From Anaerovoracaceae bacterium (lineage in GTDB: Bacteria; Bacillota; Clostridia; Peptostreptococcales; Anaerovoracaceae): a stretch of 64,000 nucleotides of DNA. The position numbers and the translations under genes were made by a program. Shown here one piece after another: positions 10,382-47,227 of the stretch. Numbering within the stretch: position 1 is the stretch's first letter; each line of letters starts with the position of its first letter. The notes under the pieces were generated by a model that ran no database searches, was not told where the DNA came from, and saw only the letters and a program-made list of their open reading frames with translations. The stretch spans positions 42,683 to 106,682 of the forward strand of contig CAXXQN010000010.1 of the NCBI GenBank assembly GCA_963665645.2, given 5' to 3'.

Positions 10382-12211
10382 TTACTCTACCGTAACCGAC
10401 TTTGCCAGATTCTTCGGTTTGTCAATATCGCAACCTCTCAGCTTAGCGATATTATAGGCCAGCAGCTGAAGTGGAACTACAGAAAGCAGCGGAGTCAGCT
10501 CATCCATGCAATCCGGGATGTAAATCACCTTGTTTGCCTGCTTTTCAATCTCTTTATTGCCTTCTTTGGCAAGACCTATGACATAAGCACCTCTGGCCTT
10601 GACTTCCTGAATATTGGAAAGCATCTTTTCAAAGAGCCGGTCTTGTGTAGCCAATGCGATAACAAGCGTACCCTGTTCGATCAAAGCAATGGTTCCATGT
10701 TTCAATTCTCCTGCCGCAATGGCAAAGGAGTTGATGTAGGAGATTTCCTTCAGCTTCAGTGACCCTTCACAGGAAACGCCGGAATCCAAACCTCTTCCGA
10801 TGAAGAATACCTGCTCAAGCTTATATTGCTCTTTTGCGATTTCCAGTATCACATTTTCCTGTTCCAGCAGATTCCTGAGTTTATCCGGAATCTCCTTTAA
10901 TTCTTCAACATAACGATGGTACGTGTCCATATCGATAATGCCCTTGGTCTGACCCATATATAATGCGATTAGGTACATGCACATCAGCTGGGTCGTATAT
11001 GCTTTCGTGGAGGCAACGGCAATTTCCGGGCCTGCCCATGTATAAAATACGTCATCTGATTCTCTGGCTACAGAGCTTCCAACCACGTTGACGACGGATA
11101 AAATACGAGCACCTTTGCTCTTCGCTTCTCTGAGAGCTGCCAGAGTATCCAGCGTTTCTCCCGACTGACTGATGGCGATAAATAACGTCTTATCATCCAC
11201 AAACGGGTCCCGATATCGGAATTCTGAAGCAACATCCACTTCTACCTGTATTTTAGCCAGCTTTTCAATGATAAATTTGCCTACCAGTCCGGCATGATAA
11301 GCCGTACCGCAAGCAACAATATATACTTTGTTGAATTTCTCCAACTCTTCCTTTGTCAGTGAAATTCCATCCAGTTTGATAATTCCGTTTTCATCAAGCC
11401 TTCTGTTCAGCGTTTCATAAAGCCCCTTTGGCTGCTCTTTGATTTCCTTGATCATGAAGTGATCATAGCCTTCCTTTTCTGCCGCGTCTGCATCCCATGT
11501 GACGTGGAATACATCCCTCTTCACTTCTTTTCTGTCCCCGTTATAAATCTTAACCTCATTCTTGGTTAAAACAACGGTTTCATTATTTTCGATCAGATAA
11601 ATTTTTCTAACGTGCTTTAACAAGGCGGGAATATCCGATGCGATAAAATTGCAGCCTTCGCCCAAACCGACTACAAGAGGACTATCCTTTCTTACCGCAA
11701 CCAGTTTATCCGGTTCTTTACTGCAGATCACTCCGATCCCATAGGCTCCTCTCATCTTGTCTACCGCTTTATAAACAGCATCAATCAAATCACCATCATA
11801 ATAGAGCCCAACCAAATGAGCAATGACTTCCGTATCAGTTTCTGAGGCAAAGACGATTCCATGCTCACGAATCAGCCATTCCCTCAGTTCAACATAATTC
11901 TCAATGATACCATTATGTACGATGGCAATGGTATGATCCATATTGCTGTGCGGATGCGCGTTGATATCCGATGGCGCTCCGTGAGTTGCCCATCTGGTAT
12001 GTCCGATTCCGATGCTGCTGTTAAAATGTTCCTTTTCAATGGCCGCTTCCAGATTAGCAATTCTTCCCTTGAATTTTCTTACTTCGATTTTTCCGTTTTT
12101 ATAAACAGCTATCCCAGAAGAATCATAACCTCTATATTCCAGTTTTTTCAGTCCATCAATAATAATGTCACTTGCATTGCCATCGCCAATATAACCAACG
12201 ATTCCACACAT
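10382..12211 (-). CDS. glmS: glutamine--fructose-6-phosphate aminotransferase
   Basis: 609 aa. MCGIVGY N-terminal nucleophile, two SIS domains, C-terminal ...KSVTVE. Confidence 0.95.
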   Translation of the reverse strand: MCGIVGYIGDGNASDIIIDGLKKLEYRGYDSSGIAVYKNGKIEVRKFKGRIANLEAAIEKEHFNSSIGIGHTRWATHGAPSDINAHPHSNMDHTIAIVHNGIIENYVELREWLIREHGIVFASETDTEVIAHLVGLYYDGDLIDAVYKAVDKMRGAYGIGVICSKEPDKLVAVRKDSPLVVGLGEGCNFIASDIPALLKHVRKIYLIENNETVVLTKNEVKIYNGDRKEVKRDVFHVTWDADAAEKEGYDHFMIKEIKEQPKGLYETLNRRLDENGIIKLDGISLTKEELEKFNKVYIVACGTAYHAGLVGKFIIEKLAKIQVEVDVASEFRYRDPFVDDKTLFIAISQSGETLDTLAALREAKSKGARILSVVNVVGSSVARESDDVFYTWAGPEIAVASTKAYTTQLMCMYLIALYMGQTKGIIDMDTYHRYVEELKEIPDKLRNLLEQENVILEIAKEQYKLEQVFFIGRGLDSGVSCEGSLKLKEISYINSFAIAAGELKHGTIALIEQGTLVIALATQDRLFEKMLSNIQEVKARGAYVIGLAKEGNKEIEKQANKVIYIPDCMDELTPLLSVVPLQLLAYNIAKLRGCDIDKPKNLAKSVTVE

Positions 12212-12222
12212 AGAATTTCCCC

Positions 12223-13572
12223 CTATCCAAATCTTTTTGTCAACAAAGAAGCCAGATTTTCTGCCCGCTTTGTAATCTGCTCAATATCCTTACCCTCTAT
12301 CATGACTCGAACCAGCGGTTCTGTCCCCGACGGACGAATGAGAACTCTGCCTTCCCCGGCCATTAAATCTTCTAATCGCTTAATTTCAGCACTGATTTCC
12401 GGGTCTGACATATATTTTTTCTTGTTTTCATTTTTAATTTTAGCATTCTTCAGTACCTGAGGATAAATGGTTACCTCATCTGCCAATACCGACGGCTTTA
12501 CTCCTGATGCCTTTACTGCCCTCAGTAACTGCAATGCAGACAAAATGCCATCTCCTGTAGTAGTGTGATTCAGAAAAATGATATGTCCAGACTGTTCCCC
12601 GCCGATAATACAGCCTGTTTTCAGCATACTTTCCAGAACATAACGGTCTCCTACCTGCGTCGTTTCCACATTGCAGCCAATGCCCTCAAGGGCTCGATGG
12701 AAGCCGATGTTGCTCATTACGGTAGCAGTCACCTTATCTCCCGGAAGCTCATCTCTTTCTTTTAGCATTTTCGCACAGATATAGATCATCTTATCCCCAT
12801 CAATCAAACGACCCGATTCATCCACTGCAATCAGTCTGTCAGCATCACCATCAAAGGCCAGCCCTAAATCAGCCTGAGACGATACCACCATTTTTTGCAG
12901 TTCTTTCGGATGGGTGGAGCCGCATCGGTCGTTGATATTCATACCATCCGGATCATTATGAATGGCCGTAACATCCGCACCAAGCTCTCGAAATACCTTC
13001 TCTGCAACCTTATAGGAAGCCCCGTTGGCACAGTCAATCACTAACCTCATGCCTTTTAAATCGGTATCAAATGTACTTTTCAAAAAATTTGCATATAAAA
13101 CAAGTGCATCTTCTTCCGCTTCCAGACAGCGACCCAGCTTATCCCCGGTAATATGACTGTTTACATCAATATTTCTAAGTATAATATCTTCAATTTCATC
13201 TTCAATTTCATCATCCAGCTTAAAGCCTTCCCCATTAAAAAATTTAATCCCATTGTATTCAAAAGGATTGTGAGATGCCGAAATAACCACGCCCGCATCA
13301 GCCTTGAAGTGTCTTACCAGATATGCTATCGCAGGGGTGGGAAGTACTCCCGCTTTGATCACATTCCCCCCCATTGCAAGAATCCCGGCACTGATCGCAT
13401 CTTCAAGCATATCTCCCGATATTCTCGTATCCTTTGCAATAAGAACAATCGGCCTTTGCTGATCCTTGCTGAGAACATAAGCTCCAGCCTTTCCAAGATT
13501 AAACGCGAGCTCCGGTGTAAGTTCAGAATTTGCCACTCCTCTTACACCGTCTGTTCCAAAAAGTCTGCCCAT
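12223..13572 (-). CDS. glmM: phosphoglucosamine mutase
   Basis: 449 aa. Phosphoserine loop ISASHNPFEYNGIKFF. Confidence 0.95.
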   Translation of the reverse strand: MGRLFGTDGVRGVANSELTPELAFNLGKAGAYVLSKDQQRPIVLIAKDTRISGDMLEDAISAGILAMGGNVIKAGVLPTPAIAYLVRHFKADAGVVISASHNPFEYNGIKFFNGEGFKLDDEIEDEIEDIILRNIDVNSHITGDKLGRCLEAEEDALVLYANFLKSTFDTDLKGMRLVIDCANGASYKVAEKVFRELGADVTAIHNDPDGMNINDRCGSTHPKELQKMVVSSQADLGLAFDGDADRLIAVDESGRLIDGDKMIYICAKMLKERDELPGDKVTATVMSNIGFHRALEGIGCNVETTQVGDRYVLESMLKTGCIIGGEQSGHIIFLNHTTTGDGILSALQLLRAVKASGVKPSVLADEVTIYPQVLKNAKIKNENKKKYMSDPEISAEIKRLEDLMAGEGRVLIRPSGTEPLVRVMIEGKDIEQITKRAENLASLLTKRFG

Positions 13573-13586
13573 GATTTATCTCCTTA

Positions 13587-14795
13587 TTATTCTGATTCTG
13601 TTTGATTTAATGCAATGTGAACCTCTTCCGGATCCACTGTGATATGTCCCAGCTGCTTATCATAACGAACCTGTACCTTTGCTGTTGCAGAAATCAAAGA
13701 CTCTGCATCCAGCTCAAGATATGGTTCCAAATCTTCTTTTGTTAATTCCGCAATCACGTCTTCACTTCCGGATGCGGTTACTATAATCTCCGGTGTTGTG
13801 ATTGTAATACTGTTTACTCCATCAACTCCCTCCAAAGATATTTCCTCTGCAGTATAGGTAAACTCCTTCGTTGCGACAGGTTTGATTGTAATATCCACAG
13901 CCAGGTTTTCATAACCGTCGGCAAACTCAACCCCTTTGGGAAGCGGAATATCAATTGGAATTTGTGATGTATTGGATACCTCGCTGATATCAATCGCCGA
14001 AGCTGTCAATCCATCAACTCCTGCCAAGTCTTCCCATGTTCCCTTTATCTTCACACTGCTCGGCATATTAAGCTCAGTTATTTCATAAATCGGTGCAACT
14101 TCACCTGTAATTTCTACATTAAGCGGAACTTCTTTTACTTCACATAATTTCGCAGAAACGTCAATATAAGCGGACGATAATCTGACGTTCTGTACCACAT
14201 CACCAGAGCGGTTCACAGCCACTGCCGTTGCTTGAACCGTGCCGCCTTCTGTCGAAAGCTTGGACGTATTCACATCAGCCTTAATATAAGCGACCGCACT
14301 CACTTCTGATTTCGCTCCGGATACCTGAATCTCTCCCGGCTGGGTCGTAATTTGTCCCGCTTCAATTCCATCTTCAAACTGGCCGACAAAATGTACTCTG
14401 ATCTTCTTGGAAACTTCAATGAGCTCCTCAATGACTACGTTGATCTTGACCGGTGTCACTTCCACAACCGCAATTCCATCAGGAGCCGATACGGTTACCG
14501 GAATATAGTTTTTTCCGATGCTGTAGCCAAAAAGATCTGCATTGGCTATAATATCATTCGCTGAGATTTTTGTTAGATCTGCCCTTTTTGCTTTAATTTT
14601 AACATCTACCGTATAGACAGCTTCACCGGAAAGGGCAAGTCCTTTGGAAGTGAGGGTATCCTCATTCAAAAGTTGCACCGGTACGTCAGAAATCACCTGG
14701 GTTTTCATCGGATTCGTCGCTTGTATTACATATGCCCACAGCATAATTGCCATAAAAATCGATATAATTTTGTAAAAGGTATTACTGTTCAGCAT
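13587..14795 (-). CDS. cdaR: YbbR-domain protein, CdaA regulator
   Basis: 402 aa. N-terminal TM segment plus repeated YbbR-like beta domains. Sits between cdaA and glmM. Confidence 0.8.
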   Translation of the reverse strand: MLNSNTFYKIISIFMAIMLWAYVIQATNPMKTQVISDVPVQLLNEDTLTSKGLALSGEAVYTVDVKIKAKRADLTKISANDIIANADLFGYSIGKNYIPVTVSAPDGIAVVEVTPVKINVVIEELIEVSKKIRVHFVGQFEDGIEAGQITTQPGEIQVSGAKSEVSAVAYIKADVNTSKLSTEGGTVQATAVAVNRSGDVVQNVRLSSAYIDVSAKLCEVKEVPLNVEITGEVAPIYEITELNMPSSVKIKGTWEDLAGVDGLTASAIDISEVSNTSQIPIDIPLPKGVEFADGYENLAVDITIKPVATKEFTYTAEEISLEGVDGVNSITITTPEIIVTASGSEDVIAELTKEDLEPYLELDAESLISATAKVQVRYDKQLGHITVDPEEVHIALNQTESE

Positions 14796-15627
14796 CCTTG
14801 CGCCTCCTGATTTTATCTAGGAATGGAACCTTAACCTTTTCCGTCTGGATCTGACTTAAATAGATATTCAGCAAGGTTTTTTCAACAGTTTTGATATCAA
14901 GAAATCTGGAAAGCTTCCCATCTACTGCAATAGAAATAATCCCAGTCTCTTCCGATACGATAAGCGCTATCGCGTCGGAATTTTCCGTAATTCCAATTCC
15001 TGCTCTGTGTCTGGTTCCCAATTCCTTGCTCAGAGTCTTGCTCTGCGTCAAAGGAAGCACGCACCCCGCAGCAAAAACCCGATCCCCTCTAACGATAATA
15101 GCTCCGTCGTGCAACGGTGCCCCCACGTAAAAGATATTTCCCAGCAATTCTGTTGAAATTTCTGCGTTAATTTTTGTTCCCGTCTCTGCGATATCATTCA
15201 AAGTCGTCTCCCGTTCCATAATGATCAATGCACCGACTTTGTTGGATGAGAAAAAATCTACTGCTTTAATAATTGCTGCAGTGATCGTTTTTACTCTTTC
15301 TTTATCCATTTGTGCAAACGGAGGTGTAATAAATTTGCTTCGACCAACATATTCCAAAGCACGCCTGAGTTCTGGCTGGAAAACAATAACAAGTGCAATA
15401 ACGCCTAATGATATTGTATTACGAAGAATCCAATTCAGTGTATAGAGATTAAATTTATCCGATAAAATGGTAATCACAACCAAAATTAGCAGCCCTTTCA
15501 CAAGCTGCAACGCTCTGGTTTCCCTAATGAATCCTAAGACTTTATAGATCACAAACGCAACGATGCACACATCAATGACATCTGTGATTCCAACGCCGGA
15601 AATAATATTATCGAATATTTCTGACAT
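14782..15627 (-). CDS. cdaA: diadenylate cyclase
   Basis: Three N-terminal TM segments and a DAC domain (HDGAIIV, GTRHRAG). ATG at 15627 has a GGGGGAGAAG RBS, and the TTG at 15645 is less likely. Confidence 0.9.
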   Translation of the reverse strand: MSEIFDNIISGVGITDVIDVCIVAFVIYKVLGFIRETRALQLVKGLLILVVITILSDKFNLYTLNWILRNTISLGVIALVIVFQPELRRALEYVGRSKFITPPFAQMDKERVKTITAAIIKAVDFFSSNKVGALIIMERETTLNDIAETGTKINAEISTELLGNIFYVGAPLHDGAIIVRGDRVFAAGCVLPLTQSKTLSKELGTRHRAGIGITENSDAIALIVSEETGIISIAVDGKLSRFLDIKTVEKTLLNIYLSQIQTEKVKVPFLDKIRRRKDAEQ

Positions 15628-15727
15628 AGATCTCTTCTCCCCCAAGTTTCTGCTGAACGCCCGGCTTCAACCGGATTAGAATTCTTTCAATTCGCAAAGC
15701 AAAATTGAATGCGACAGTCTTATAATT

Positions 15728-15756
15728 ATTGTACCGAATAAAGTGCTACATTTCAA
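15728..15756 (-). promoter_or_regulatory. candidate sigma-A promoter of the cdaA operon
   Basis: On the minus strand, TTGAAA-17 nt-TACAAT, about 80 nt upstream of the cdaA start. Confidence 0.45.
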
Positions 15757-15800
15757 TAGGTTTTAAGGAGAAATTCAAACAACAAGAATGTAAAAAAAGT

Positions 15801-15927
15801 GGAAATGACGGAATCGAGGCTTCCTATTTCCAAATGTCGCCGCAAGGGCGACGACGGTCAAGGAGCTTTCTTTGATACTCCGTCAATATCGCTGAAAGCA
15901 ATATTTCCTACTGAATAAAAAAAGTGG
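15801..15927 (-). repeat. hairpin-rich intergenic repeat, copy A1 (boundaries approximate)
   Basis: Three hairpins: 15801-15831, 15836-15852, 15885-15905. About 90% identical to 20804-20927. On the minus strand, hairpin 1 is followed by U7. Confidence 0.75.
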
Positions 15928-16025
15928 CTGACGCCACGCTTGTGCGACGCGGAATTTATCACTACGTCGTACTTTTTTGTTGCGTCATGGTTTTTTATCC
16001 TTTAAAATTTACTTGGTGATGTTTT

Positions 16026-17144
16026 GTGAGTTCGAAGTTTACCATCAAGCAAATATTTCAAGATCACTGGCCCGCATTCCTCTCTTCCAATCCAAGCATT
16101 CGTCCTATCGTCAAGGATGAAGTTGAAAAAATGCTTAATTGCGGTGATTTGAAAAAGGGCTATGGTCTCTACTACTGTCATCACTGCAATCGATTCCATT
16201 ATGTGCCTTTTCGCTGCAAATCCCGCTTCTGCAATACCTGCGGCACCGCCTATCAGGCAGATCGTGCCGATTCCATATCTGCAAAGCTGATTAACTGCCG
16301 CCACAGGCATATTGTTTTTACGATCCCTCAAGAGCTTCGTGAGCTTTTTAGAAAAAACCGCGCCCTTTTGGATCTTCTTTTTAAGGCTGCTGCTCAAACG
16401 ATTACCAACTGGTTTTACAATCAGAATCATAAGGAATCCTTTACTCCCGGTATAGTCTGTTCCCTTCATACCTTCGGTCGCGATCTCAAGTGGAATCCAC
16501 ATATCCATATGATTGTATCCGAAGGTGCCTGCGGCCTGCTTACTCCTTGGAAAGCATTCAACTTTTTCCCTTATGTGATGCTGCGGAAAAAATGGCAGAC
16601 TACCTTGCTTTATCACCTTGAGCGACACTTCGATAATGATTCGTTCAAATTCCTGAAAAACAAAATGTATTCCAACAACAAGGACGGTTTCTATGTCCAC
16701 GCTCCCAAATCTGATTTTAACTCTCCCAAAACCGTCGCTAATTACATCACCAGATATATCGGAAGGCCTGCCTTGGCTCAATCACGTATTACGAATTACG
16801 ATGGGCAAAACATCTCTTTTTGGTACAACCGCCATGAAGATGAACAACGTCAGGACGAAACCATCCCTGCTTTTGAATTCATCGAAAGGCTTATCATTCA
16901 CATTCATGAAAAGTATTTCAACACGTTGCGCTATTACGGTCTCTATGCGAAAAAGCATAAGTTTGCCGATAGGCTTGTTTTCCTTCTTTCAAGACATTCT
17001 GCGAAAGCCCGCCTCTTGTGCAGAAATTGGGCTTTCCGAATCGAACTATCCTTTGGCTATGATCCCACTAGATGCTCTTGTGGAAACTATATGGAATTTC
17101 TCGGCGTTTTCCGGCCTGGTGATGTTGCCTTTATGCCCCCTTGA
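16026..17144 (+). CDS. IS91-family Y2 HUH transposase, copy 1
   Basis: GTG start 5 nt after GGTGAT. Cys-rich Zn region (CHHC...CKSRFCNTC), HUH-like NPHIHMIV, two-Tyr motif ANYITRYIGRP. Confidence 0.85.
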   Translation: MSSKFTIKQIFQDHWPAFLSSNPSIRPIVKDEVEKMLNCGDLKKGYGLYYCHHCNRFHYVPFRCKSRFCNTCGTAYQADRADSISAKLINCRHRHIVFTIPQELRELFRKNRALLDLLFKAAAQTITNWFYNQNHKESFTPGIVCSLHTFGRDLKWNPHIHMIVSEGACGLLTPWKAFNFFPYVMLRKKWQTTLLYHLERHFDNDSFKFLKNKMYSNNKDGFYVHAPKSDFNSPKTVANYITRYIGRPALAQSRITNYDGQNISFWYNRHEDEQRQDETIPAFEFIERLIIHIHEKYFNTLRYYGLYAKKHKFADRLVFLLSRHSAKARLLCRNWAFRIELSFGYDPTRCSCGNYMEFLGVFRPGDVAFMPP

Positions 17145-17177
17145 TGTGTATAATGGTGCCATTGGAGGTACTGCAAA

Positions 17178-17450
17178 ATGACTAAGCATATTTATATGAA
17201 AAAATCTGAATACAATCGAATCACCGCCGAGAAACTACGCACTAAATATATGAAGAATCCGCCTGAAGGATATACAAAATCAGAAATCAAATCGATGTCG
17301 GATGATTCCATCCTTGACATGGACTATTTTCTTCACGAAGAGTCCTACGACTTTTACGATGATGATTTCCCCGCTGAAGAGCCTGATGAAATCATCCATC
17401 TTATCGATGATTTACCTAAAGATCCTGTGGATGAGGATATTCCTTGGTAA
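17178..17450 (+). CDS. 90-aa acidic hypothetical protein carried by the IS, copy 1
   Basis: ATG lies 9 nt after GGAGG. Asp/Glu-rich C-terminal half. Followed by a GAGGCC-n6-GGCCTC hairpin plus T-rich run. Confidence 0.55.
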   Translation: MTKHIYMKKSEYNRITAEKLRTKYMKNPPEGYTKSEIKSMSDDSILDMDYFLHEESYDFYDDDFPAEEPDEIIHLIDDLPKDPVDEDIPW

Positions 17451-17651
17451 TCAGGTTCTGTTTTCTTATGCGCTTCTTTCCCTTGAGGCCTTTTGGGGCC
17501 TCTATTTTTATTCCTGGTTTTGAACGATATTTCCTACTGAATAAAAAAAGTGGCTGACGCCACGCTTGTGCGACGCGGAATTTATCACTACGTCGTACTT
17601 TTTTGTTGCGTCATGGTTTTTTATCCTTTAAAATTTACTTGGTGATGTTTT

Positions 17652-18770
17652 GTGAGTTCGAAGTTTACCATCAAGCAAATATTTCAAGATCACTGGCCCG
17701 CATTCCTCTCTTCCAATCCAAGCATTCGTCCTATCGTCAAGGATGAAGTTGAAAAAATGCTTAATTGCGGTGATTTGAAAAAGGGCTATGGTCTCTACTA
17801 CTGTCATCACTGCAATCGATTCCATTATGTGCCTTTTCGCTGCAAATCCCGCTTCTGCAATACCTGCGGCACCGCCTATCAGGCAGATCGTGCCGATTCC
17901 ATATCTGCAAAGCTGATTAACTGCCGCCACAGGCATATTGTTTTTACGATCCCTCAAGAGCTTCGTGAGCTTTTTAGAAAAAACCGCGCCCTTTTGGATC
18001 TTCTTTTTAAGGCTGCTGCTCAAACGATTACCAACTGGTTTTACAATCAGAATCATAAGGAATCCTTTACTCCCGGTATAGTCTGTTCCCTTCATACCTT
18101 CGGTCGCGATCTCAAGTGGAATCCACATATCCATATGATTGTATCCGAAGGTGCCTGCGGCCTGCTTACTCCTTGGAAAGCATTCAACTTTTTCCCTTAT
18201 GTGATGCTGCGGAAAAAATGGCAGACTACCTTGCTTTATCACCTTGAGCGACACTTCGATAATGATTCGTTCAAATTCCTGAAAAACAAAATGTATTCCA
18301 ACAACAAGGACGGTTTCTATGTCCACGCTCCCAAATCTGATTTTAACTCTCCCAAAACCGTCGCTAATTACATCACCAGATATATCGGAAGGCCTGCCTT
18401 GGCTCAATCACGTATTACGAATTACGATGGGCAAAACATCTCTTTTTGGTACAACCGCCATGAAGATGAACAACGTCAGGACGAAACCATCCCTGCTTTT
18501 GAATTCATCGAAAGGCTTATCATTCACATTCATGAAAAGTATTTCAACACGTTGCGCTATTACGGTCTCTATGCGAAAAAGCATAAGTTTGCCGATAGGC
18601 TTGTTTTCCTTCTTTCAAGACATTCTGCGAAAGCCCGCCTCTTGTGCAGAAATTGGGCTTTCCGAATCGAACTATCCTTTGGCTATGATCCCACTAGATG
18701 CTCTTGTGGAAACTATATGGAATTTCTCGGCGTTTTCCGGCCTGGTGATGTTGCCTTTATGCCCCCTTGA
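17652..18770 (+). CDS. IS91-family Y2 HUH transposase, copy 2
   Basis: Translation identical to copy 1. Confidence 0.85.
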   Translation: MSSKFTIKQIFQDHWPAFLSSNPSIRPIVKDEVEKMLNCGDLKKGYGLYYCHHCNRFHYVPFRCKSRFCNTCGTAYQADRADSISAKLINCRHRHIVFTIPQELRELFRKNRALLDLLFKAAAQTITNWFYNQNHKESFTPGIVCSLHTFGRDLKWNPHIHMIVSEGACGLLTPWKAFNFFPYVMLRKKWQTTLLYHLERHFDNDSFKFLKNKMYSNNKDGFYVHAPKSDFNSPKTVANYITRYIGRPALAQSRITNYDGQNISFWYNRHEDEQRQDETIPAFEFIERLIIHIHEKYFNTLRYYGLYAKKHKFADRLVFLLSRHSAKARLLCRNWAFRIELSFGYDPTRCSCGNYMEFLGVFRPGDVAFMPP

Positions 18771-18803
18771 TGTGTATAATGGTGCCATTGGAGGTACTGC
18801 AAA

Positions 18804-19076
18804 ATGACTAAGCATATTTATATGAAAAAATCTGAATACAATCGAATCACCGCCGAGAAACTACGCACTAAATATATGAAGAATCCGCCTGAAGGATATA
18901 CAAAATCAGAAATCAAATCGATGTCGGATGATTCCATCCTTGACATGGACTATTTTCTTCACGAAGAGTCCTACGACTTTTACGATGATGATTTCCCCGC
19001 TGAAGAGCCTGATGAAATCATCCATCTTATCGATGATTTACCTAAAGATCCTGTGGATGAGGATATTCCTTGGTAA
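18804..19076 (+). CDS. 90-aa acidic hypothetical protein, copy 2
   Basis: Translation identical to copy 1. Confidence 0.55.
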   Translation: MTKHIYMKKSEYNRITAEKLRTKYMKNPPEGYTKSEIKSMSDDSILDMDYFLHEESYDFYDDDFPAEEPDEIIHLIDDLPKDPVDEDIPW

Positions 19077-19277
19077 TCAGGTTCTGTTTTCTTATGCGCT
19101 TCTTTCCCTTGAGGCCTTTTGGGGCCTCTATTTTTATTCCTGGTTTTGAACGATATTTCCTACTGAATAAAAAAAGTGGCTGACGCCACGCTTGTGCGAC
19201 GCGGAATTTATCACTACGTCGTACTTTTTTGTTGCGTCATGGTTTTTTATCCTTTAAAATTTACTTGGTGATGTTTT

Positions 19278-20396
19278 GTGAGTTCGAAGTTTACCATCAA
19301 GCAAATATTTCAAGATCACTGGCCCGCATTCCTCTCTTCCAATCCAAGCATTCGTCCTATCGTCAAGGATGAAGTTGAAAAAATGCTTAATTGCGGTGAT
19401 TTGAAAAAGGGCTATGGTCTCTACTACTGTCATCACTGCAATCGATTCCATTATGTGCCTTTTCGCTGCAAATCCCGCTTCTGCAATACCTGCGGCACCG
19501 CCTATCAGGCAGATCGTGCCGATTCCATATCTGCAAAGCTGATTAACTGCCGCCACAGGCATATTGTTTTTACGATCCCTCAAGAGCTTCGTGAGCTTTT
19601 TAGAAAAAACCGCGCCCTTTTGGATCTTCTTTTTAAGGCTGCTGCTCAAACGATTACCAACTGGTTTTACAATCAGAATCATAAGGAATCCTTTACTCCC
19701 GGTATAGTCTGTTCCCTTCATACCTTCGGTCGCGATCTCAAGTGGAATCCACATATCCATATGATTGTATCCGAAGGTGCCTGCGGCCTGCTTACTCCTT
19801 GGAAAGCATTCAACTTTTTCCCTTATGTGATGCTGCGGAAAAAATGGCAGACTACCTTGCTTTATCACCTTGAGCGACACTTCGGTAATGATTCGTTCAA
19901 ATTCCTGAAAAACAAAATGTATTCCAACAACAAGGACGGTTTCTATGTCCACGCTCCCAAATCTGATTTTAACTCTCCCAAAACCGTCGCTAATTACATC
20001 ACCAGATATATCGGAAGGCCTGCCTTGGCTCAATCACGTATTACGAATTACGATGGGCAAAACATCTCTTTTTGGTACAACCGCCATGAAGATGAACAAC
20101 GTCAGGACGAAACCATCCCTGCTTTTGAATTCATCGAAAGGCTTATCATTCACATTCATGAAAAGTATTTCAACACGTTGCGCTATTACGGTCTCTATGC
20201 GAAAAAGCATAAGTTTGCCGATAGGCTTGTTTTCCTTCTTTCAAGACATTCTGCGAAAGCCCGCCTCTTGTGCAGAAATTGGGCTTTCCGAATCGAACTA
20301 TCCTTTGGCTATGATCCCACTAGATGCTCTTGTGGAAACTATATGGAATTTCTCGGCGTTTTCCGGCCTGGTGATGTTGCCTTTATGCCCCCTTGA
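19278..20396 (+). CDS. IS91-family Y2 HUH transposase, copy 3 (one Asp to Gly change)
   Basis: HFDNDSF becomes HFGNDSF through the G at 19885. Confidence 0.85.
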   Translation: MSSKFTIKQIFQDHWPAFLSSNPSIRPIVKDEVEKMLNCGDLKKGYGLYYCHHCNRFHYVPFRCKSRFCNTCGTAYQADRADSISAKLINCRHRHIVFTIPQELRELFRKNRALLDLLFKAAAQTITNWFYNQNHKESFTPGIVCSLHTFGRDLKWNPHIHMIVSEGACGLLTPWKAFNFFPYVMLRKKWQTTLLYHLERHFGNDSFKFLKNKMYSNNKDGFYVHAPKSDFNSPKTVANYITRYIGRPALAQSRITNYDGQNISFWYNRHEDEQRQDETIPAFEFIERLIIHIHEKYFNTLRYYGLYAKKHKFADRLVFLLSRHSAKARLLCRNWAFRIELSFGYDPTRCSCGNYMEFLGVFRPGDVAFMPP

Positions 20397-20429
20397 TGTG
20401 TATAATGGTGCCATTGGAGGTACTGCAAA

Positions 20430-20702
20430 ATGACTAAGCATATTTATATGAAAAAATCTGAATACAATCGAATCACCGCCGAGAAACTACGCACTAAATA
20501 TATGAAGAATCCGCCTGAAGGATATACAAAATCAGAAATCAAATCGATGTCGGATGATTCCATCCTTGACATGGACTATTTTCTTCACGAAGAGTCCTAC
20601 GACTTTTACGATGATGATTTCCCCGCTGAAGAGCCTGATGAAATCATCCATCTTATCGATGATTTACCTAAAGATCCTGTGGATGAGGATATTCCTTGGT
20701 AA
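20430..20702 (+). CDS. 90-aa acidic hypothetical protein, copy 3
   Basis: Translation identical to copy 1. Confidence 0.55.
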   Translation: MTKHIYMKKSEYNRITAEKLRTKYMKNPPEGYTKSEIKSMSDDSILDMDYFLHEESYDFYDDDFPAEEPDEIIHLIDDLPKDPVDEDIPW

Positions 20703-20803
20703 TCAGGTTCTGTTTTCTTATGCGCTTCTTTCCCTTGAGGCCTTTTGGGGCCTCTATTTTTATTCCTGGTTTTGAACGATATTTCCTACTGAATAAAAAA
20801 AGT

Positions 20804-20927
20804 GGAAATGACGGAATCGAAGCTTCCTATTTCCACATGTCGCCGCAAGGGCGACAACGACCAAGGAGCTTTCTTTGATACTCCGTCAATATCGCTGAGA
20901 GCGAAATTTCCTACGTAATAAAAAGAG
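20804..20927 (-). repeat. hairpin-rich intergenic repeat, copy A2
   Basis: Same three-hairpin layout as A1. Abuts the hpf terminator on one side and the last IS junction on the other. Confidence 0.75.
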
Positions 20928-20951
20928 AGACGGTTTTTTTAAGCCGTCTCT
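20920..20951 (-). terminator. intrinsic terminator of hpf
   Basis: On the minus strand, AGAGACGG-n9-CCGTCTCT followed by CTTTTT. Confidence 0.7.
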
Positions 20952-20968
20952 AATAATCTATCTATCGA

Positions 20969-21499
20969 TTAATATTGTGTCTCCAATATACCATAATCAT
21001 TATTTTTTCTTTTATAAACGACGTTTACCGCATCGCTTTCCATGTTGAGAAACACAAAGAAACTATGTTCCAAAAGTTCCATTTGCATAATTGCCTCGTC
21101 GACAGACATCGGCATCAATTCAAACTTCTTTCTTCTCACAACGCTCATTTCTTCTAATTCCTCACCAGCAACCTCAGGAATGTTTTTAAATAACAATTCC
21201 TTATGGTCTTTATGTTTTCGTTGGAGCTTGGTCTTAAATCTCGACATTTGAGAAGATAATTTTTCAACAACCCTGTCCACACCATTGTAAGCATCATTTG
21301 TAGTTTCTTCAGCCCTAAAGATAGTCCCGTTCGCATTGATCGTTGCTTCTATCTTTTGCCTGCCCTTCTCAGTGGATAAGGTGATGTTGGCCACGATATC
21401 ATTAGAGAAATACTTTCCCAGTCGATCCAATTTGGATTCGATGGTTTCTTTCAGATGGTCACTGGCATTCATGTTTTTGCTTGTAATGATAACTTTCAT
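20969..21499 (-). CDS. hpf: ribosome hibernation promoting factor (long form)
   Basis: 176 aa. N-terminal RaiA/HPF fold (MKVIITSKNM...LKETIESKL) and a C-terminal dimerisation domain. Confidence 0.9.
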   Translation of the reverse strand: MKVIITSKNMNASDHLKETIESKLDRLGKYFSNDIVANITLSTEKGRQKIEATINANGTIFRAEETTNDAYNGVDRVVEKLSSQMSRFKTKLQRKHKDHKELLFKNIPEVAGEELEEMSVVRRKKFELMPMSVDEAIMQMELLEHSFFVFLNMESDAVNVVYKRKNNDYGILETQY

Positions 21500-21946: not shown

Positions 21947-22120
21947 ACTAGAGCCGCCTAGCTGACCTGATCTTTGCCCCCACACCTGCCTTTTGATTTT
22001 TATCAAAGGACTTACATCTAAGCTACGCCATGATCACTGCCGCCTTGCGGTCCAGCTTACGTGGGTCCTTTTGCCCGTAACTGGCATGGACTTTCAATCA
22101 CAGACCTAAGCAGCTCTAGT
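21947..22120 (-). ncRNA. structured ncRNA candidate, probably raiA-motif RNA
   Basis: A 15-bp closing helix joins 22120-22106 to 21961-21947. It has two G-U pairs on the minus strand that would be C-A mismatches on the plus strand. GC-rich interior inside an AT-rich spacer. Lies between comFC and hpf. A possible TTGTGT-18-TATATA promoter is at 22160-22131. Confidence 0.5.
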
Positions 22121-34797: not shown

Positions 34798-34812
34798 ATT
34801 CATTCTCCCAAA

Positions 34813-34969
34813 AAATGTGGCGACAACGGCTGTGCCTCCTGCTTGCTTCGCTCGCTGCTGTCCGTTTTGCCATGCCAAGCAAGCTTGGGGCAAAAAGGCA
34901 ACGGTCATGGGGCTTTCTTTGATACTCCGTCAATATCGCCAAGAGCGATATTTTCCTACGTAATAAATA
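34813..34969 (-). repeat. mosaic copy A3 of the intergenic repeat (A-type 3' module plus ~90-nt B module)
   Basis: 34906-34969 matches A1/A2. 34817-34905 is an extra module with the hairpin TTTTGCC..CCAAGC-AA-GCTTGG-GGCAAAA (34865-34895). Confidence 0.7.
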
Positions 34970-34971
34970 AC

Positions 34972-34998
34972 GGGCTGTAACCATAATAGTTACAGCCC
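34972..34998 (-). terminator. hairpin after the substrate-binding protein gene (likely attenuating terminator or stabiliser)
   Basis: GGGCTGTAAC-n7-GTTACAGCCC, followed on the minus strand by GTTATTTATT. Confidence 0.5.
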
Positions 34999-46841: not shown

Positions 46842-46944
46842 ACAAAAAACAGATTGAGCGGAAGATTCCCATCCAGCTAACACCGATGGAATTTCCGTAT
46901 TGCTCCTGTCGACATTTGCTCAACAAATGAAGCTGGGTGCGTAA

Positions 46945-47227
46945 AACCGTTGATTAAGAAGAGTAAGCATAGCCCTTCATTTCACAGAGAACCGCTGATG
47001 GTGGGATAGCGGTAAATGAGACTACGCCGAATGGACTTATGAGGGCAGGACGAAATTAGCTTGCGCAGTAAATTAACAAGCAAGAGTAGTGCCTGACGGG
47101 ATCTCTACCCGTTATCAAGGGAGCATGTATGAAGTACATGGAAGGAGTGGGTGCTTGCGCCAATCAGGGTGGTACCGCAGAAGTTTAGCTTTTGTCCCAG
47201 AGAAATCTGGAACAAAAGCTTTTTTTA
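46945..47227 (+). promoter_or_regulatory. T-box riboswitch, tryptophan specifier (UGG at 47032-47034)
   Basis: K-turn TGATTAAGAAGAGTA, the AGAGA and GGTGGGA distal motifs, GAA-UGG-A in the specifier position, T-box AATCAGGGTGGTACCGCAG (47162-47180), and terminator AGCTTTTGT.CCAG-n6-CTGG.ACAAAAGCT plus T7. Confidence 0.8.

What the first reader, a model, noticed from the sequence alone, without database searches (positions are those of the whole stretch)
15791..15937. IS array sits at the joint of two tandem copies of a structured repeat and shares 27 nt with it
Seen: the array is bracketed by two sequences about 90% identical to each other (15801-15927 and 20804-20927). Each has three hairpins. 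They are GGAAAT-GAC-GGAA-n7-TTCC-T-ATTTCC (15801-15831, 20804-20834), GTCGCC-GCAAG-GGCGAC (15836-15852), and AATATCGC-n5-GCAATATT (15885-15905). Read on the minus strand, hairpin 1 is followed by U7 and so resembles an intrinsic terminator. With the IS units removed, the two copies would abut directly. The left copy is itself preceded by another TAAAAAAAGTGG (15791-15802), as if it were part of a longer tandem series. The 27-mer found at all IS junctions equals the last 27 nt of the left copy. Its left edge falls inside the 3' arm of hairpin 3, so the IS ends cannot be placed more precisely than 27-33 nt. At IS-internal junctions the same GTGG instead forms GTGGC-TGAC-GCCAC (15924-15937). Substitutions in hairpin 1 fall in the loop (G/A at 15818 versus 20821). 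Inference: there are three possibilities. The IS may target this repeat, as other HUH elements target hairpins. It may have captured 27-33 nt of the repeat by imprecise termination. Or the repeat may be a miniature derivative carrying one IS end.
Basis: partly seen in the sequence, partly recalled or inferred. Interest (0 to 1): 0.65.

Follow-up and report, generated by a model that had tools for sequence, protein, structure and literature searches.

The report
Rolling-circle IS and its miniature partner
The 125-nt repeat is a non-coding miniature partner of an IS91-family rolling-circle insertion sequence, and five such elements are stacked head to tail just after the terminator of the hpf gene, which shows that this group of elements lands next to terminator-shaped DNA, including its own ends.

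Summary
Three 1626-bp IS units that differ by one SNP lie between two 125-nt repeats (R1, R2; 92% identical), and the 27-mer is present at all four joints.

The interpretation needs re-framing. Relatives in 115 other loci place the element ends to about 1 nt:
- The left end is T-A7 followed by a hairpin.
- The right end is ...ATATTTCCTACTGAA.
- The "27-mer" is therefore the right end (15 nt) of one element joined to the left end (12 nt) of the next.
- R carries both ends, so R1-IS-IS-IS-R2 (15791-20918) is a stack of five head-to-tail elements.

The stack lies immediately after the T-tract of the hpf terminator. Seven related Anaerovoracaceae contigs keep the same gene order with only 165-263 nt and no element at that position.

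Across the clade, 44 of 52 host junctions at the right end abut an A-run plus hairpin, which is a terminator read backwards (controls 11-24%). The IS's own left end has the same shape, so element ends are themselves targets, and this explains tandem arrays.

In the source organism, read depth gives about 13 IS copies and about 60-140 R copies. Every IS copy is followed by another IS or by R.

This is an IS91-family element and a new variant of a known kind. Mobility of R and recognition of the hairpin by the transposase are inferred, not shown.

The parts
15791..15915 (+). R1, a 125-nt miniature element. Left end TAAAAAAAGTGG (15791-15802). Hairpin 1 at 15799-15833, nested GTGGAAAT/ATTTCCA(C) with GGAA/TTCC. 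Hairpin 2 at 15836-15852. Hairpin 3 at 15885-15905. Right end ATATTTCCTACTGAA (15901-15915).
   Evidence: Sequence. It is 92% identical to R2. Fold z -3.4/-3.9. Read depth jumps from about 20 to more than 800 at 15788-15794, and 6-7 contigs diverge exactly before 15791.
15916..17541 (+). IS copy 1 (1626 bp). Left (ter-side) end is T-A7 (15916-15923) plus hairpin GTGGC-TGAC-GCCAC (15924-15937). Second hairpin plus T6 at 15942-15978. tnpA 16026-17144. ORF2 17178-17450. Terminator-like hairpin 17485-17502. Right (ori-side) end ...GAACGATATTTCCTACTGAA (17522-17541).
   Evidence: Pfam Zn_Tnp_IS91 plus Y2_Tnp. NCBIfam transpos_IS91, 300 bits. The unitig of the IS starts at 15916, and four unique flanks break at 15914-15916. 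End motifs are conserved in relatives.
17542..19167 (+). IS copy 2, identical to copy 1 (tnpA 17652-18770, ORF2 18804-19076).
19168..20793 (+). IS copy 3. It has one A>G difference at 19885 (D>G in TnpA). tnpA 19278-20396, ORF2 20430-20702.
20794..20918 (+). R2, a 125-nt miniature element with an intact hairpin 1 (GTGGAAAT...ATTTCCAC). Its right end is the variant ...AAATTTCCTACGTAA.
   Evidence: Fold z -4.6/-4.1. The right end is found by the clade's right-end profile.
20919..20951 (-). Insertion target: the intrinsic terminator of hpf. On the minus strand the stem is AGAGACGG/CCGTCTCT (20926-20951), followed by CTTTTTA (20925-20919).
   Evidence: The same hairpin plus T5-8 directly follows hpf in seven related contigs that have no element there.
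15728..15790 (-). Host sequence left of the array. It contains a cdaA promoter-like site (TTGAAA-17-TACAAT, 15756-15728) and is collinear with the relatives' spacer.
34810..34963 (+). R3, a rearranged R copy without hairpin 1 and with a 78-nt insert. Its right end ...TTTTCCTACGTAA abuts TAAATAAC plus the host hairpin GGGCTGTAAC/GTTACAGCCC (34972-34998).

Best explanation
**What it is.** The 1626-bp unit is an IS91-family (HUH, two-tyrosine) rolling-circle insertion sequence. Its ends differ from each other.
- The left (ter-side) end is 5'-T-A7 followed at once by a short G+C hairpin.
- The right (ori-side) end is 5'-...GA(A/T)(A/C)TTTCCTA(C/T)nnAA.
- It makes no target duplication.
- It inserts immediately 5' of a site that looks like its own left end: a T/A-run followed by a hairpin. 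On the other strand this is the 3' end of an intrinsic terminator (hairpin, T-tract, A).

**What R is.** R is a 125-nt non-coding element with the same two ends: a left T-A7-GTGG...CCAC hairpin and a right ATATTTCCTAC(TG/GT)AA. It is a miniature, non-autonomous partner that the same transposase would move in trans.

**What the 27-mer is.** It is not a captured or shared block. It is the joint that arises wherever any two such elements lie head to tail: 15 nt of right end plus 12 nt of left end.

**How the locus formed.** Here five elements (R1, IS, IS, IS, R2) were stacked at one point, directly after the T-tract of the hpf terminator. Every resident element offers a new left-end target. Alternatively, runs of modules can move together when termination at an inner left end is skipped.

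**Shown:**
- family membership;
- the end positions;
- absence of target duplication;
- the terminator-shaped flanks;
- covariation of the left hairpin;
- copy numbers;
- the empty syntenic sites.

**Inferred:**
- R is mobilised by this transposase.
- The hairpin itself, and not only the A-run, is read by the enzyme.
- Cleavage is on the bottom strand just 3' of hairpin-T7-A. This rests on analogy with IS91, where the bottom-strand circle is the active form (PMC13181058).
For: **Family.** Pfam PF14319 plus PF04986. NCBIfam NF033538, 300 bits against a cut-off of 125. In a 40-sequence alignment the invariant residues include H93-R94-H95, H159-I160-H161 and Y240/Y244.

**Ends.**
- The right end is conserved next to unrelated flanks in L001, L002, L014, L015 and L003, and in about 60 further loci. 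Positions -16 to -6 are near-invariant.
- The left end, T-A6-7 plus a 5-7 bp hairpin lying 82-129 nt before tnpA, is found in 57 loci. Nine different stem sequences occur and all are perfectly complementary: GTGGC/GCCAC 19, GTGTC/GACAC 12, CGGAA/TTCCG 10, GCGTC/GACGC 6, and others.

**No target duplication.** The left T-A-run is present even where the right flank starts GAAC, CAAG or GGAC (L040, L043, L052, L105).

**Target.**
- 44 of 52 non-redundant host right flanks have a strong hairpin starting within 16 nt (median offset 6). Random positions give 11% and TAAAAA-starting positions 17% (Fisher p = 4e-32 and 1e-23).
- Of the flanks that start TAAA, 26 of 28 have the hairpin, against 24% of non-coding TAAAA sites (p = 4e-13).

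**R as an element.**
- Its ends are identical to the IS ends (12 + 15 nt).
- R2 and R3 abut host terminator hairpins.
- At least 8 other R copies have flanks that begin TAAA.
- Depth gives about 60-140 R copies and about 13 IS copies.

**R-like or IS-deletion minis directly after the IS right end in other genomes.**
- L036 and L043. With R, their hairpin 1 shows 4 of 12 pairs changed on both sides and 98% of cells paired.
- L044, whose mini has the same hairpin as its own IS.
- L039, with an IS-type left end and an R-like right half (E = 0.015).

**Insertion at this locus.** Seven related contigs keep recD2-comF-hpf-cdaA-cdaR-glmM-glmS with a 165-263 nt hpf-cdaA spacer, the same terminator and no element. 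The window's flanks join as TTTTTA|CATTCTTG, against TTTTTT-CATATCTG in L117.

**Element ends as targets.**
- All IS right ends in the organism run into TAAAAAAAGTGG. After that the depth splits into about 55 (IS|IS) and about 24 (IS|R).
- The head-to-tail neighbours in L003 are only 80% identical, so they arose by separate insertions.

**Agreement with known IS91 biology.** No target duplication; a target tetranucleotide next to oriIS that resembles the ter cleavage site; a subterminal palindrome at ter (PMC13181058). Targets GAAC/GGAC/CAAG and miniature derivatives that share the right end are documented for IS801 (PMC3189936).
Against: - No transposition event was observed, so mobility of R and trans-mobilisation rest on anatomy and distribution.
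- R's interior has no detectable similarity to the IS interior. It is therefore not a simple deletion derivative, and the shared ends could in principle be convergent mimicry.
- Only three R-like elements outside this organism were found, so the covariation test has 3 independent lineages.
- The enrichment of hairpins at targets could be partly due to selection, because insertions after terminators are harmless. The non-coding control reduces this objection but does not remove it.
- Copy numbers come from summed k-mer depth of assembled contigs and are rough.
- The complete genome of the organism could not be searched. A 23-mer from R found nothing in 185,579 species genomes.
- The three near-identical IS copies could equally have arisen by over-replication or unequal crossing-over.
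- L003 is a metagenome contig and could be chimeric.
Confidence: 0.8

Rival explanations
1. R is an independent host repeat, a REP-like portable terminator or small-RNA module. It is not related to the IS by descent or mobility. The IS merely prefers it as a landing pad because R's left end happens to resemble the IS's own left end.
For: - R's interior and its long nested hairpin 1 differ from the IS.
- R outnumbers the IS about 5-10 fold.
- Every IS copy in the organism sits left of an IS or an R.
- Hairpin 1 plus T7 has terminator shape on the minus strand.
Against: - This does not explain why R's right end carries the clade-wide ori-side motif (G-A-W-M-TTTCCTA-Y-nnAA).
- It does not explain why R2 and R3 abut host terminators exactly as IS right ends do.
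- It does not explain why the mini next to the L044 IS has that IS's own hairpin.
- It does not explain why L039 has a mini with an IS-type left end.
- R is absent from the syntenic site in seven relatives.
Confidence: 0.12
2. The IS acquired the 27-33 nt from R. This could have happened by imprecise termination (one-ended transposition) or by recombination, so that the shared block is a captured piece of host repeat.
For: - One-ended transposition is frequent in IS91-family elements (1-14% in IS91 and IS1294; more than 26% of events in IS801; PMC13181058, PMC3189936).
- The block is 100% identical between R1 and the IS.
Against: - Both halves of the block are conserved parts of the IS ends in dozens of relatives from other genera that have unrelated flanks and no detected R.
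- Four IS copies in the same genome lack the first 15 nt on their left.
- R2 and R3 have diverged versions of the right end, as expected for old independent copies.
Confidence: 0.03
3. The triple IS array was not built by three insertions. It arose either by rolling-circle over-replication (failure to terminate at the left end, giving concatemers) or by unequal homologous recombination after a first duplication. The R copies are bystanders.
For: - The three copies differ by a single SNP.
- Head-to-tail joints and tandem arrays are a known mark of rolling-circle elements such as Helitrons (PMC5876387).
- IS91 forms circles with an ori-ter joint identical in form to the tandem joint (PMC13181058).
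- IS|IS joints are also seen in marsh-metagenome contigs.
Against: - This rival concerns only how the copy number rose. It does not explain R, the shared ends or the terminator site.
- Tandem neighbours in L003 are 80% identical, and the upstream neighbour in L058 differs from the IS, so some joints come from separate insertions.
Confidence: 0.35

Closest known systems
IS91 family (IS91, IS801, IS1294) rolling-circle insertion sequences
   Same: - HUH/Y2 transposase with an N-terminal zinc domain.
- Unlike ends, with no inverted repeats and no target duplication.
- A subterminal palindrome next to the ter cleavage site.
- Insertion next to a short sequence that resembles the element's own left terminus.
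- A minority of flanks here are the classical GAAC, CAAG and GGAC.
   Different: - The preferred flank is T-A6-7 plus a hairpin (a terminator read backwards) instead of a bare tetranucleotide.
- The left end starts with T-A7 rather than GAAC or CTCG.
- A conserved 90-aa ORF lies downstream of tnpA, whereas IS91 has orf121 upstream.
- Hosts are Clostridia.
Miniature IS801 derivatives (229, 360 and 679 nt) in Pseudomonas syringae (PMC3189936)
   Same: Short non-coding pieces of an IS91-family element that keep the right (ori) end, begin with the left-end-like short motif, and transpose with the transposase supplied in trans.
   Different: - Those are contiguous right-end fragments made anew by premature termination, and they are low in copy number.
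- R has its own interior and a structured left hairpin.
- R has about 60-140 copies and relatives in other genomes.
Class C (IIC) group II introns
   Same: Mobile elements that insert just after intrinsic transcription terminators, recognising the DNA stem-loop rather than a long sequence (PMC4424553).
   Different: They are retroelements that act through an RNA and a reverse transcriptase, with no HUH transposase. The resemblance is in target choice only.
Helitrons and their non-autonomous derivatives
   Same: - Rolling-circle transposons with a 3' subterminal hairpin.
- No target duplication.
- Abundant non-autonomous copies that share only the termini.
- Head-to-tail tandem arrays (PMC5876387, PMC4778049).
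   Different: They are eukaryotic, encode a Rep-helicase fusion, and have an A/T dinucleotide target. There is no homology beyond the HUH fold.
IS elements that target repeated palindromes (IS1397 and ISKpn1 in REP; ISPpu9 with its ssr9 module)
   Same: An IS found specifically next to a structured intergenic repeat. A small module lies downstream of the transposase gene and also occurs alone elsewhere (PMC1525189, PMC12288879).
   Different: The transposase families differ (IS3, IS110). There the repeat is a host element, not one sharing both ends with the IS.

Membership tests
IS91 family insertion sequence (for the 1626-bp unit) | HUH/Y2 transposase with an N-terminal zinc-binding domain | tested here: met
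   PF14319 (E = 6e-24) plus PF04986 (E = 1e-35). NF033538 equivalog at 300 bits against a cut-off of 125. HxH motifs and Y240/Y244 are invariant in 40 relatives.
IS91 family insertion sequence (for the 1626-bp unit) | Two unlike ends (ter upstream, ori downstream of tnpA) with no terminal inverted repeats | tested here: met
   The left end is T-A7 plus a hairpin and the right end is ...TTTCCTACTGAA. The two are not complementary to each other.
IS91 family insertion sequence (for the 1626-bp unit) | No target-site duplication | tested here: met
   The left T-A-run is constant whatever the right flank is (GAAC in L040 and L105, GGAC in L043, CAAG in L052). Four unique left flanks in the organism are unrelated to the right flank.
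IS91 family insertion sequence (for the 1626-bp unit) | Subterminal palindrome adjacent to the ter cleavage site | tested here: met
   Found in 57 loci with nine covarying stem variants, always directly after T-A6-7.
IS91 family insertion sequence (for the 1626-bp unit) | Target tetranucleotide GAAC/CAAG (that is, GTTC/CTTG) next to the ori end | tested here: inconclusive
   9 of 52 host flanks start GAAC or CAAG, and one further flank, next to an R-like element, starts GGAC. 28 of 52 start TAAA. The rule holds in form (a short motif like the left terminus) but with a different preferred motif.
IS91 family insertion sequence (for the 1626-bp unit) | Rolling-circle transposition through a single-strand circle, and one-ended transposition | not testable with these tools
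   Only indirect marks were seen: head-to-tail joints in the window, L001, L003 and L058 and in runs X4 and X6.
Miniature non-autonomous derivative of an IS (for R) | Short, non-coding, and shares both termini with an autonomous element of the same genome | tested here: met
   R is 125 nt. The left 12 nt and right 15 nt are identical to the IS ends. Both hairpins close GTGG...CCAC and share TGACG.
Miniature non-autonomous derivative of an IS (for R) | Many dispersed copies with the same insertion signature as the autonomous element | tested here: met
   Summed depth is 1100-2760 against about 18-20 for single-copy sequence. There are three copies in the window. R2, R3 and at least 8 other copies are followed by TAAA..., with a hairpin where the flank could be read.
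Miniature non-autonomous derivative of an IS (for R) | Presence/absence at orthologous sites | tested here: met
   The syntenic hpf-cdaA spacer in seven related contigs has no R and no IS. The relatives are other species (GlmM about 91% identical), not strains.
Miniature non-autonomous derivative of an IS (for R) | Terminal inverted repeats and target duplication (the strict MITE definition) | tested here: not met
   There is neither, as expected for an HUH-type element. 'MITE' in the strict sense does not apply.
Miniature non-autonomous derivative of an IS (for R) | Mobilised in trans by the IS transposase | not testable with these tools
   This needs a transposition assay.
Intrinsic terminator (R hairpin 1 plus T7 and IS left hairpin plus T7, minus strand) | G+C stem-loop followed by a U-tract that ends transcripts | tested here: inconclusive
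   The shape is present. The IS hairpins are flagged by the scan. No RNA run exists for the organism.
Known RNA families (Rfam) | Match to a curated covariance model | tested here: not met
   There was no hit in R or the IS ends at gathering threshold. At E <= 10 on 15640-15960 only chance-level hits appeared.

The most novel reading that the evidence does not exclude
A widespread clade of IS91-family elements in Clostridia has replaced the family's 4-nt target with a structural one. Its transposase reads a terminator-shaped DNA hairpin plus T-tract on single-stranded DNA, and uses that shape both as its own termination (ter) signal and as its insertion site. The elements therefore home to the 3' ends of genes and to each other. 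They have also spawned high-copy miniature partners (R) that act as landing pads and may add portable terminators between genes.
Probability: 0.5. Interest if true: 0.72.

Novelty: new variant of a known kind. Interest (0 to 1): 0.6.

Why it matters
**It explains a puzzling local pattern with one rule.** The shared 27-mer, the tandem IS units and the bracketing repeats all follow from how these elements insert.

**It fixes the element ends to the nucleotide.** Annotation pipelines cannot do this from a tandem array alone.

**It extends what is known about IS91-family targets.** The data indicate that a large group of IS91-family elements in anaerobic Firmicutes lands after intrinsic terminators and next to its own ends. 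This is a safe-harbour strategy known so far for class C group II introns. No paper that the four IS91-related full-text searches returned describes it for IS91-type elements.

**It would be testable and possibly useful.** If the hairpin is truly read by the enzyme, this is a simple, testable case of structure-directed DNA targeting by a Y2 HUH transposase. It would also be a source of compact ends for single-strand insertion tools.

**It matters for assembly and annotation.** Hundred-copy miniature elements and tandem IS arrays break short-read assemblies, and they add terminator-like hairpins between genes.

Tried and rejected
- **Rfam.** Searches at gathering threshold over the whole window, and at E <= 10 on 15640-15960, found no family for R or the IS ends.
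- **R 23-mer.** An exact scan of 185,579 species genomes for a 23-mer from R gave no hits, so the organism and any close R-bearing relative are not in that collection.
- **Exact-sequence look-ups.** Look-ups of TnpA and Hpf found nothing on record.
- **R in other loci.** BLAST and nhmmer searches of R against all fetched loci found only a weak right-half match in L039 and hairpin-level matches in L036 and L043. There was no R in the seven syntenic relatives.
- **IS starting at the hairpin.** An early model placed the left A-run in the host and the right A-run in the IS. It was rejected because many relatives have no A-run at the right junction (flanks GAAC, CAAG or GGAC) yet keep T-A6-7 on the left.
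- **A 27-bp target duplication.** Rejected, because single IS copies with both flanks (L002 and others) lack it.
- **R as a riboswitch or leader of cdaA.** Rejected because R is multi-copy, a copy lies in an unrelated operon, and R is absent upstream of cdaA in relatives.
- **Promoter inside R.** The scan found none.
- **Circular or tandem signature in short contigs.** A test for terminal overlap in 38 short IS contigs found none.
- **RNA-seq.** A search for runs to test termination found none for this organism.
- **First left-hairpin script.** The first regular-expression pass returned nothing because of a script flaw and was rewritten.
Full report
**1. The observation**

The window holds three direct 1626-bp repeats (register 15901, 17527, 19153). 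Copies 1 and 2 are identical, and copy 3 has one A>G change at unit position 733. The 27-mer ATATTTCCTACTGAATAAAAAAAGTGG stands at 15901, 17527, 19153 and 20779.

The array is bracketed by two sequences that are 92% identical, at 15791-15924 and 20794-20927. The repeat folds better than shuffled controls on both strands (z -3.4 to -4.6).

**2. Context**

The locus lies between two minus-strand genes. On one side is cdaA (14782-15645), followed by cdaR, glmM and glmS. On the other is hpf (20969-21499), which is preceded by a raiA-motif RNA. GlmM is about 91% identical to that of Anoxybacterium hadale and to Anaerovoracaceae MAGs, so the host belongs to the Anaerovoracaceae.

**3. The IS**

Each unit encodes a 372-aa protein with Pfam Zn_Tnp_IS91 plus Y2_Tnp. 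It also matches the NCBIfam IS91 equivalog at 300 bits against a cut-off of 125. In an alignment of 40 relatives the HxH motifs and Y240/Y244 are invariant.

A 90-aa acidic ORF follows tnpA. It is conserved in 34 related loci and has no family assignment.

**4. Where the ends are**

From this locus alone the ends are ambiguous, so relatives were collected: 35 metagenome loci and 80 genome loci, with 31-90% transposase identity.

- **Right end.** The sequence ...GAACGATA(T/A)TTCCTACTGAA stands next to unrelated host DNA in L002, L014, L015 and L003. A profile of it finds the same end in about 60 loci. Positions -16 to -6 (G-A-W-M-T-T-T-C-C-T-A) are almost invariant.
- **Left end.** T-A6-7 followed directly by a 5-7 bp hairpin lies 82-129 nt before tnpA in 57 loci. 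Nine stem variants occur, all perfectly complementary: GTGGC/GCCAC 19, GTGTC/GACAC 12, CGGAA/TTCCG 10, GCGTC/GACGC 6, GTGCC/GGCAC 3, and others. This is strong covariation.
- **The T-A-run belongs to the IS.** It is present whatever the right flank is, including flanks that start GAAC (L040, L105), GGAC (L043) or CAAG (L052). It is therefore not a duplicated target.
- **Reads agree.** In the source organism the high-depth IS unitig begins exactly at 15916. Four single-copy contigs enter the IS from unrelated sequence and break at 15914-15916.

The resulting coordinates are:

| Element | Coordinates |
|---|---|
| R1 | 15791-15915 |
| IS copy 1 | 15916-17541 |
| IS copy 2 | 17542-19167 |
| IS copy 3 | 19168-20793 |
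| R2 | 20794-20918 |

The "27-mer" is 15 nt of right end plus 12 nt of left end. It must appear at any head-to-tail joint of two such elements.

**5. What R is**

R begins TAAAAAAAGTGG, as the IS does. It continues into a hairpin that closes GTGG...CCAC and shares TGACG with the IS hairpin. It ends ATATTTCCTACTGAA, as the IS does; R2 and R3 carry the variants ...AAATTTCCTACGTAA and ...ATATTTTCCTACGTAA.

R2 abuts the hpf terminator. R3 abuts the terminator of a substrate-binding-protein gene.

Evidence from reads of the source organism:
- Summed depth over R is 1100-2760, against about 18-20 for single-copy DNA. This gives roughly 60-140 copies. The IS stands at about 268, or about 13 copies.
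- Six or seven contigs diverge exactly before 15791.
- At least 8 contigs carrying other R copies follow the R2 flank for 4-8 nt (TAAA...) before diverging.
- R|R joints occur elsewhere in the genome.

Outside this organism, small elements sit directly after the IS right end in four loci:
- L036 and L043 have R-type nested hairpins. With R they show 4 of 12 pairs changed on both sides and 98% of cells paired.
- In L044 the mini carries that IS's own hairpin followed by an R-type hairpin 2.
- In L039 a 104-nt mini has an IS-type left end and an R-like right half (E = 0.015).

R is thus best read as a miniature non-autonomous partner of this IS clade. It is not a strict MITE, because it has neither inverted repeats nor target duplication.

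**6. The target**

Of 52 non-redundant junctions between an IS or R right end and host DNA:
- 35 flanks start with T, and positions 2-7 are mostly A.
- The first four bases are TAAA in 28, GAAC in 6 and CAAG in 3.
- 44 (85%) have a strong hairpin starting within 16 nt, at a median offset of 6.

| Set | Share with hairpin | Test |
|---|---|---|
| Host right flanks (n = 52) | 85% | |
| Random positions (n = 1252) | 11% | Fisher p = 4e-32 |
| TAAAAA-starting positions (n = 537) | 17% | Fisher p = 1e-23 |
| Flanks starting TAAA (n = 28) | 26 of 28 | |
| Non-coding TAAAA sites (n = 292) | 24% | p = 4e-13 |

Read on the other strand, the target is the end of an intrinsic terminator: hairpin, T-tract, A, then the element. 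The IS left end has the same shape and is flagged as terminator-like by the scan.

**7. The empty site**

Seven related contigs (L116-L123) keep the order recD2-comF-hpf-cdaA-cdaR-glmM-glmS. Their hpf-cdaA spacer is 165-263 nt. They carry a conserved terminator (GAGACGG...CCGTCTC plus T5-8) and the cdaA promoter region, and they have no R or IS.

Joining the window's flanks gives ...CCGTCTCTCTTTTTA|CATTCTTG.... This is collinear with L117 (...CCGTCTCTTTTTTTT-CATATCTG...). The whole 5128-bp stack is therefore an insertion placed exactly at the end of the terminator's T-tract.

**8. Why tandem**

Each resident element offers a perfect target at its left end. In the organism all IS right ends run into TAAAAAAAGTGG at full IS depth. 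The depth then splits into about 55 (GTGGC, meaning IS|IS) and about 24 (GTGGAAA, meaning IS|R), and none runs into plain host DNA.

In L003 the two head-to-tail IS neighbours are only 80% identical, and in L058 the upstream neighbour differs from the IS. Those joints therefore arose by separate insertions.

For the three near-identical copies in the window, three routes remain open:
- over-replication;
- unequal crossing-over;
- co-mobilisation of several modules, with initiation at R's right end and skipping of inner left ends.

Joint-spanning contigs in marsh metagenomes could be either tandems or ori-ter circles.

**9. Mechanism (inference)**

The model rests on analogy with IS91, for which the following are documented:
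- no target duplication;
- a short target next to oriIS that resembles the ter cleavage site;
- a palindrome beside that site;
- the bottom-strand circle as the active form (PMC13181058).

By this analogy the transposase would cleave the bottom strand 3' of hairpin-T7-A at three places: the ori junction, the element's own ter end, and the target.

IS801 uses the targets GAAC, GGAC and CAAG and throws off miniature right-end derivatives (PMC3189936). Both the minority flanks and a small partner therefore fit the family. What differs is the preferred T-A-run-plus-hairpin target.

The four IS91-related full-text searches returned no paper that describes terminator targeting by IS91-type elements. 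A further search on insertion sequences and intrinsic terminators also returned none, and one of its papers, read, makes no IS91-specific claim about terminators. The closest analogue in target choice is the class C group II introns (PMC4424553).

**10. Limits**

- No transposition was observed.
- The organism's full genome was not searchable.
- Copy numbers are depth-based.
- R-like elements outside the organism are few.
- Selection may contribute to the terminator bias.
- RNA-level termination by R could not be tested.

**11. Verdict**

The feature is real and well explained: an IS91-family element, its miniature partner, and a terminator-shaped target. It is a new variant of a known kind and of moderate to good interest.

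Noticed in passing
window 17178-17450, 18804-19076, 20430-20702 (+): A 90-aa acidic ORF lies downstream of tnpA, with the core motif KLR-KY-KNPP-GY-EI-MSDD-ILDMDYFL. tblastn finds it in 34 loci of the clade, always after tnpA. It has no Pfam or NCBIfam hit. It may be an accessory factor, comparable to Orf121 of IS91, which lies upstream of tnpA.
   Followed up: partly
window 34810-34963 (+): R3 is an R copy that lacks hairpin 1 and carries a 78-nt insert (34830-34907). At least 3 other contigs of the organism have this insert at the same R position. R3 sits inside an ABC-transporter operon between the binding-protein stop and the permease start, so loss of the terminator-like hairpin may have been selected.
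   Followed up: partly
window 21953-22114 (-) and 46941-47202 (+): A raiA-motif RNA (134 bits) lies upstream of hpf, and there is a T-box leader (100 bits). Both are above the Rfam gathering scores.
   Followed up: no
window 12211-12223; L116-L122: glmS follows glmM after only 11 nt, and no glmS ribozyme is detected. The same tight glmM-glmS arrangement is seen in the related contigs.
   Followed up: no
L118 13447-21350: A related metagenome contig carries a Tn7-like tnsA-tnsB-tnsC-tnsD-tnsE set immediately downstream of glmS, which is the classical attTn7 position.
   Followed up: no
window 15942-15978 (+), repeated in each IS: The IS has a second hairpin, GTGCGACG...CGTCGTAC, followed by T6 on the tnpA strand. 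It is conserved in relatives with varied sequence and looks like a terminator that shields tnpA from outside transcription.
   Followed up: partly
runs X1/X2 laid on window 20300-20699: The organism holds one diverged IS variant (49 differences and 3 gaps in 400 nt) at single-copy depth, beside the roughly 13 near-identical copies.
   Followed up: no
L001 about 786-924: The leftmost IS in this metagenome contig is preceded by about 140 nt that start with an A-run plus hairpin (GGCAGAAGAATCC...GGATTCTCCTGCC) and end with the full right-end motif. This is probably another kind of miniature partner with an unrelated interior.
   Followed up: partly
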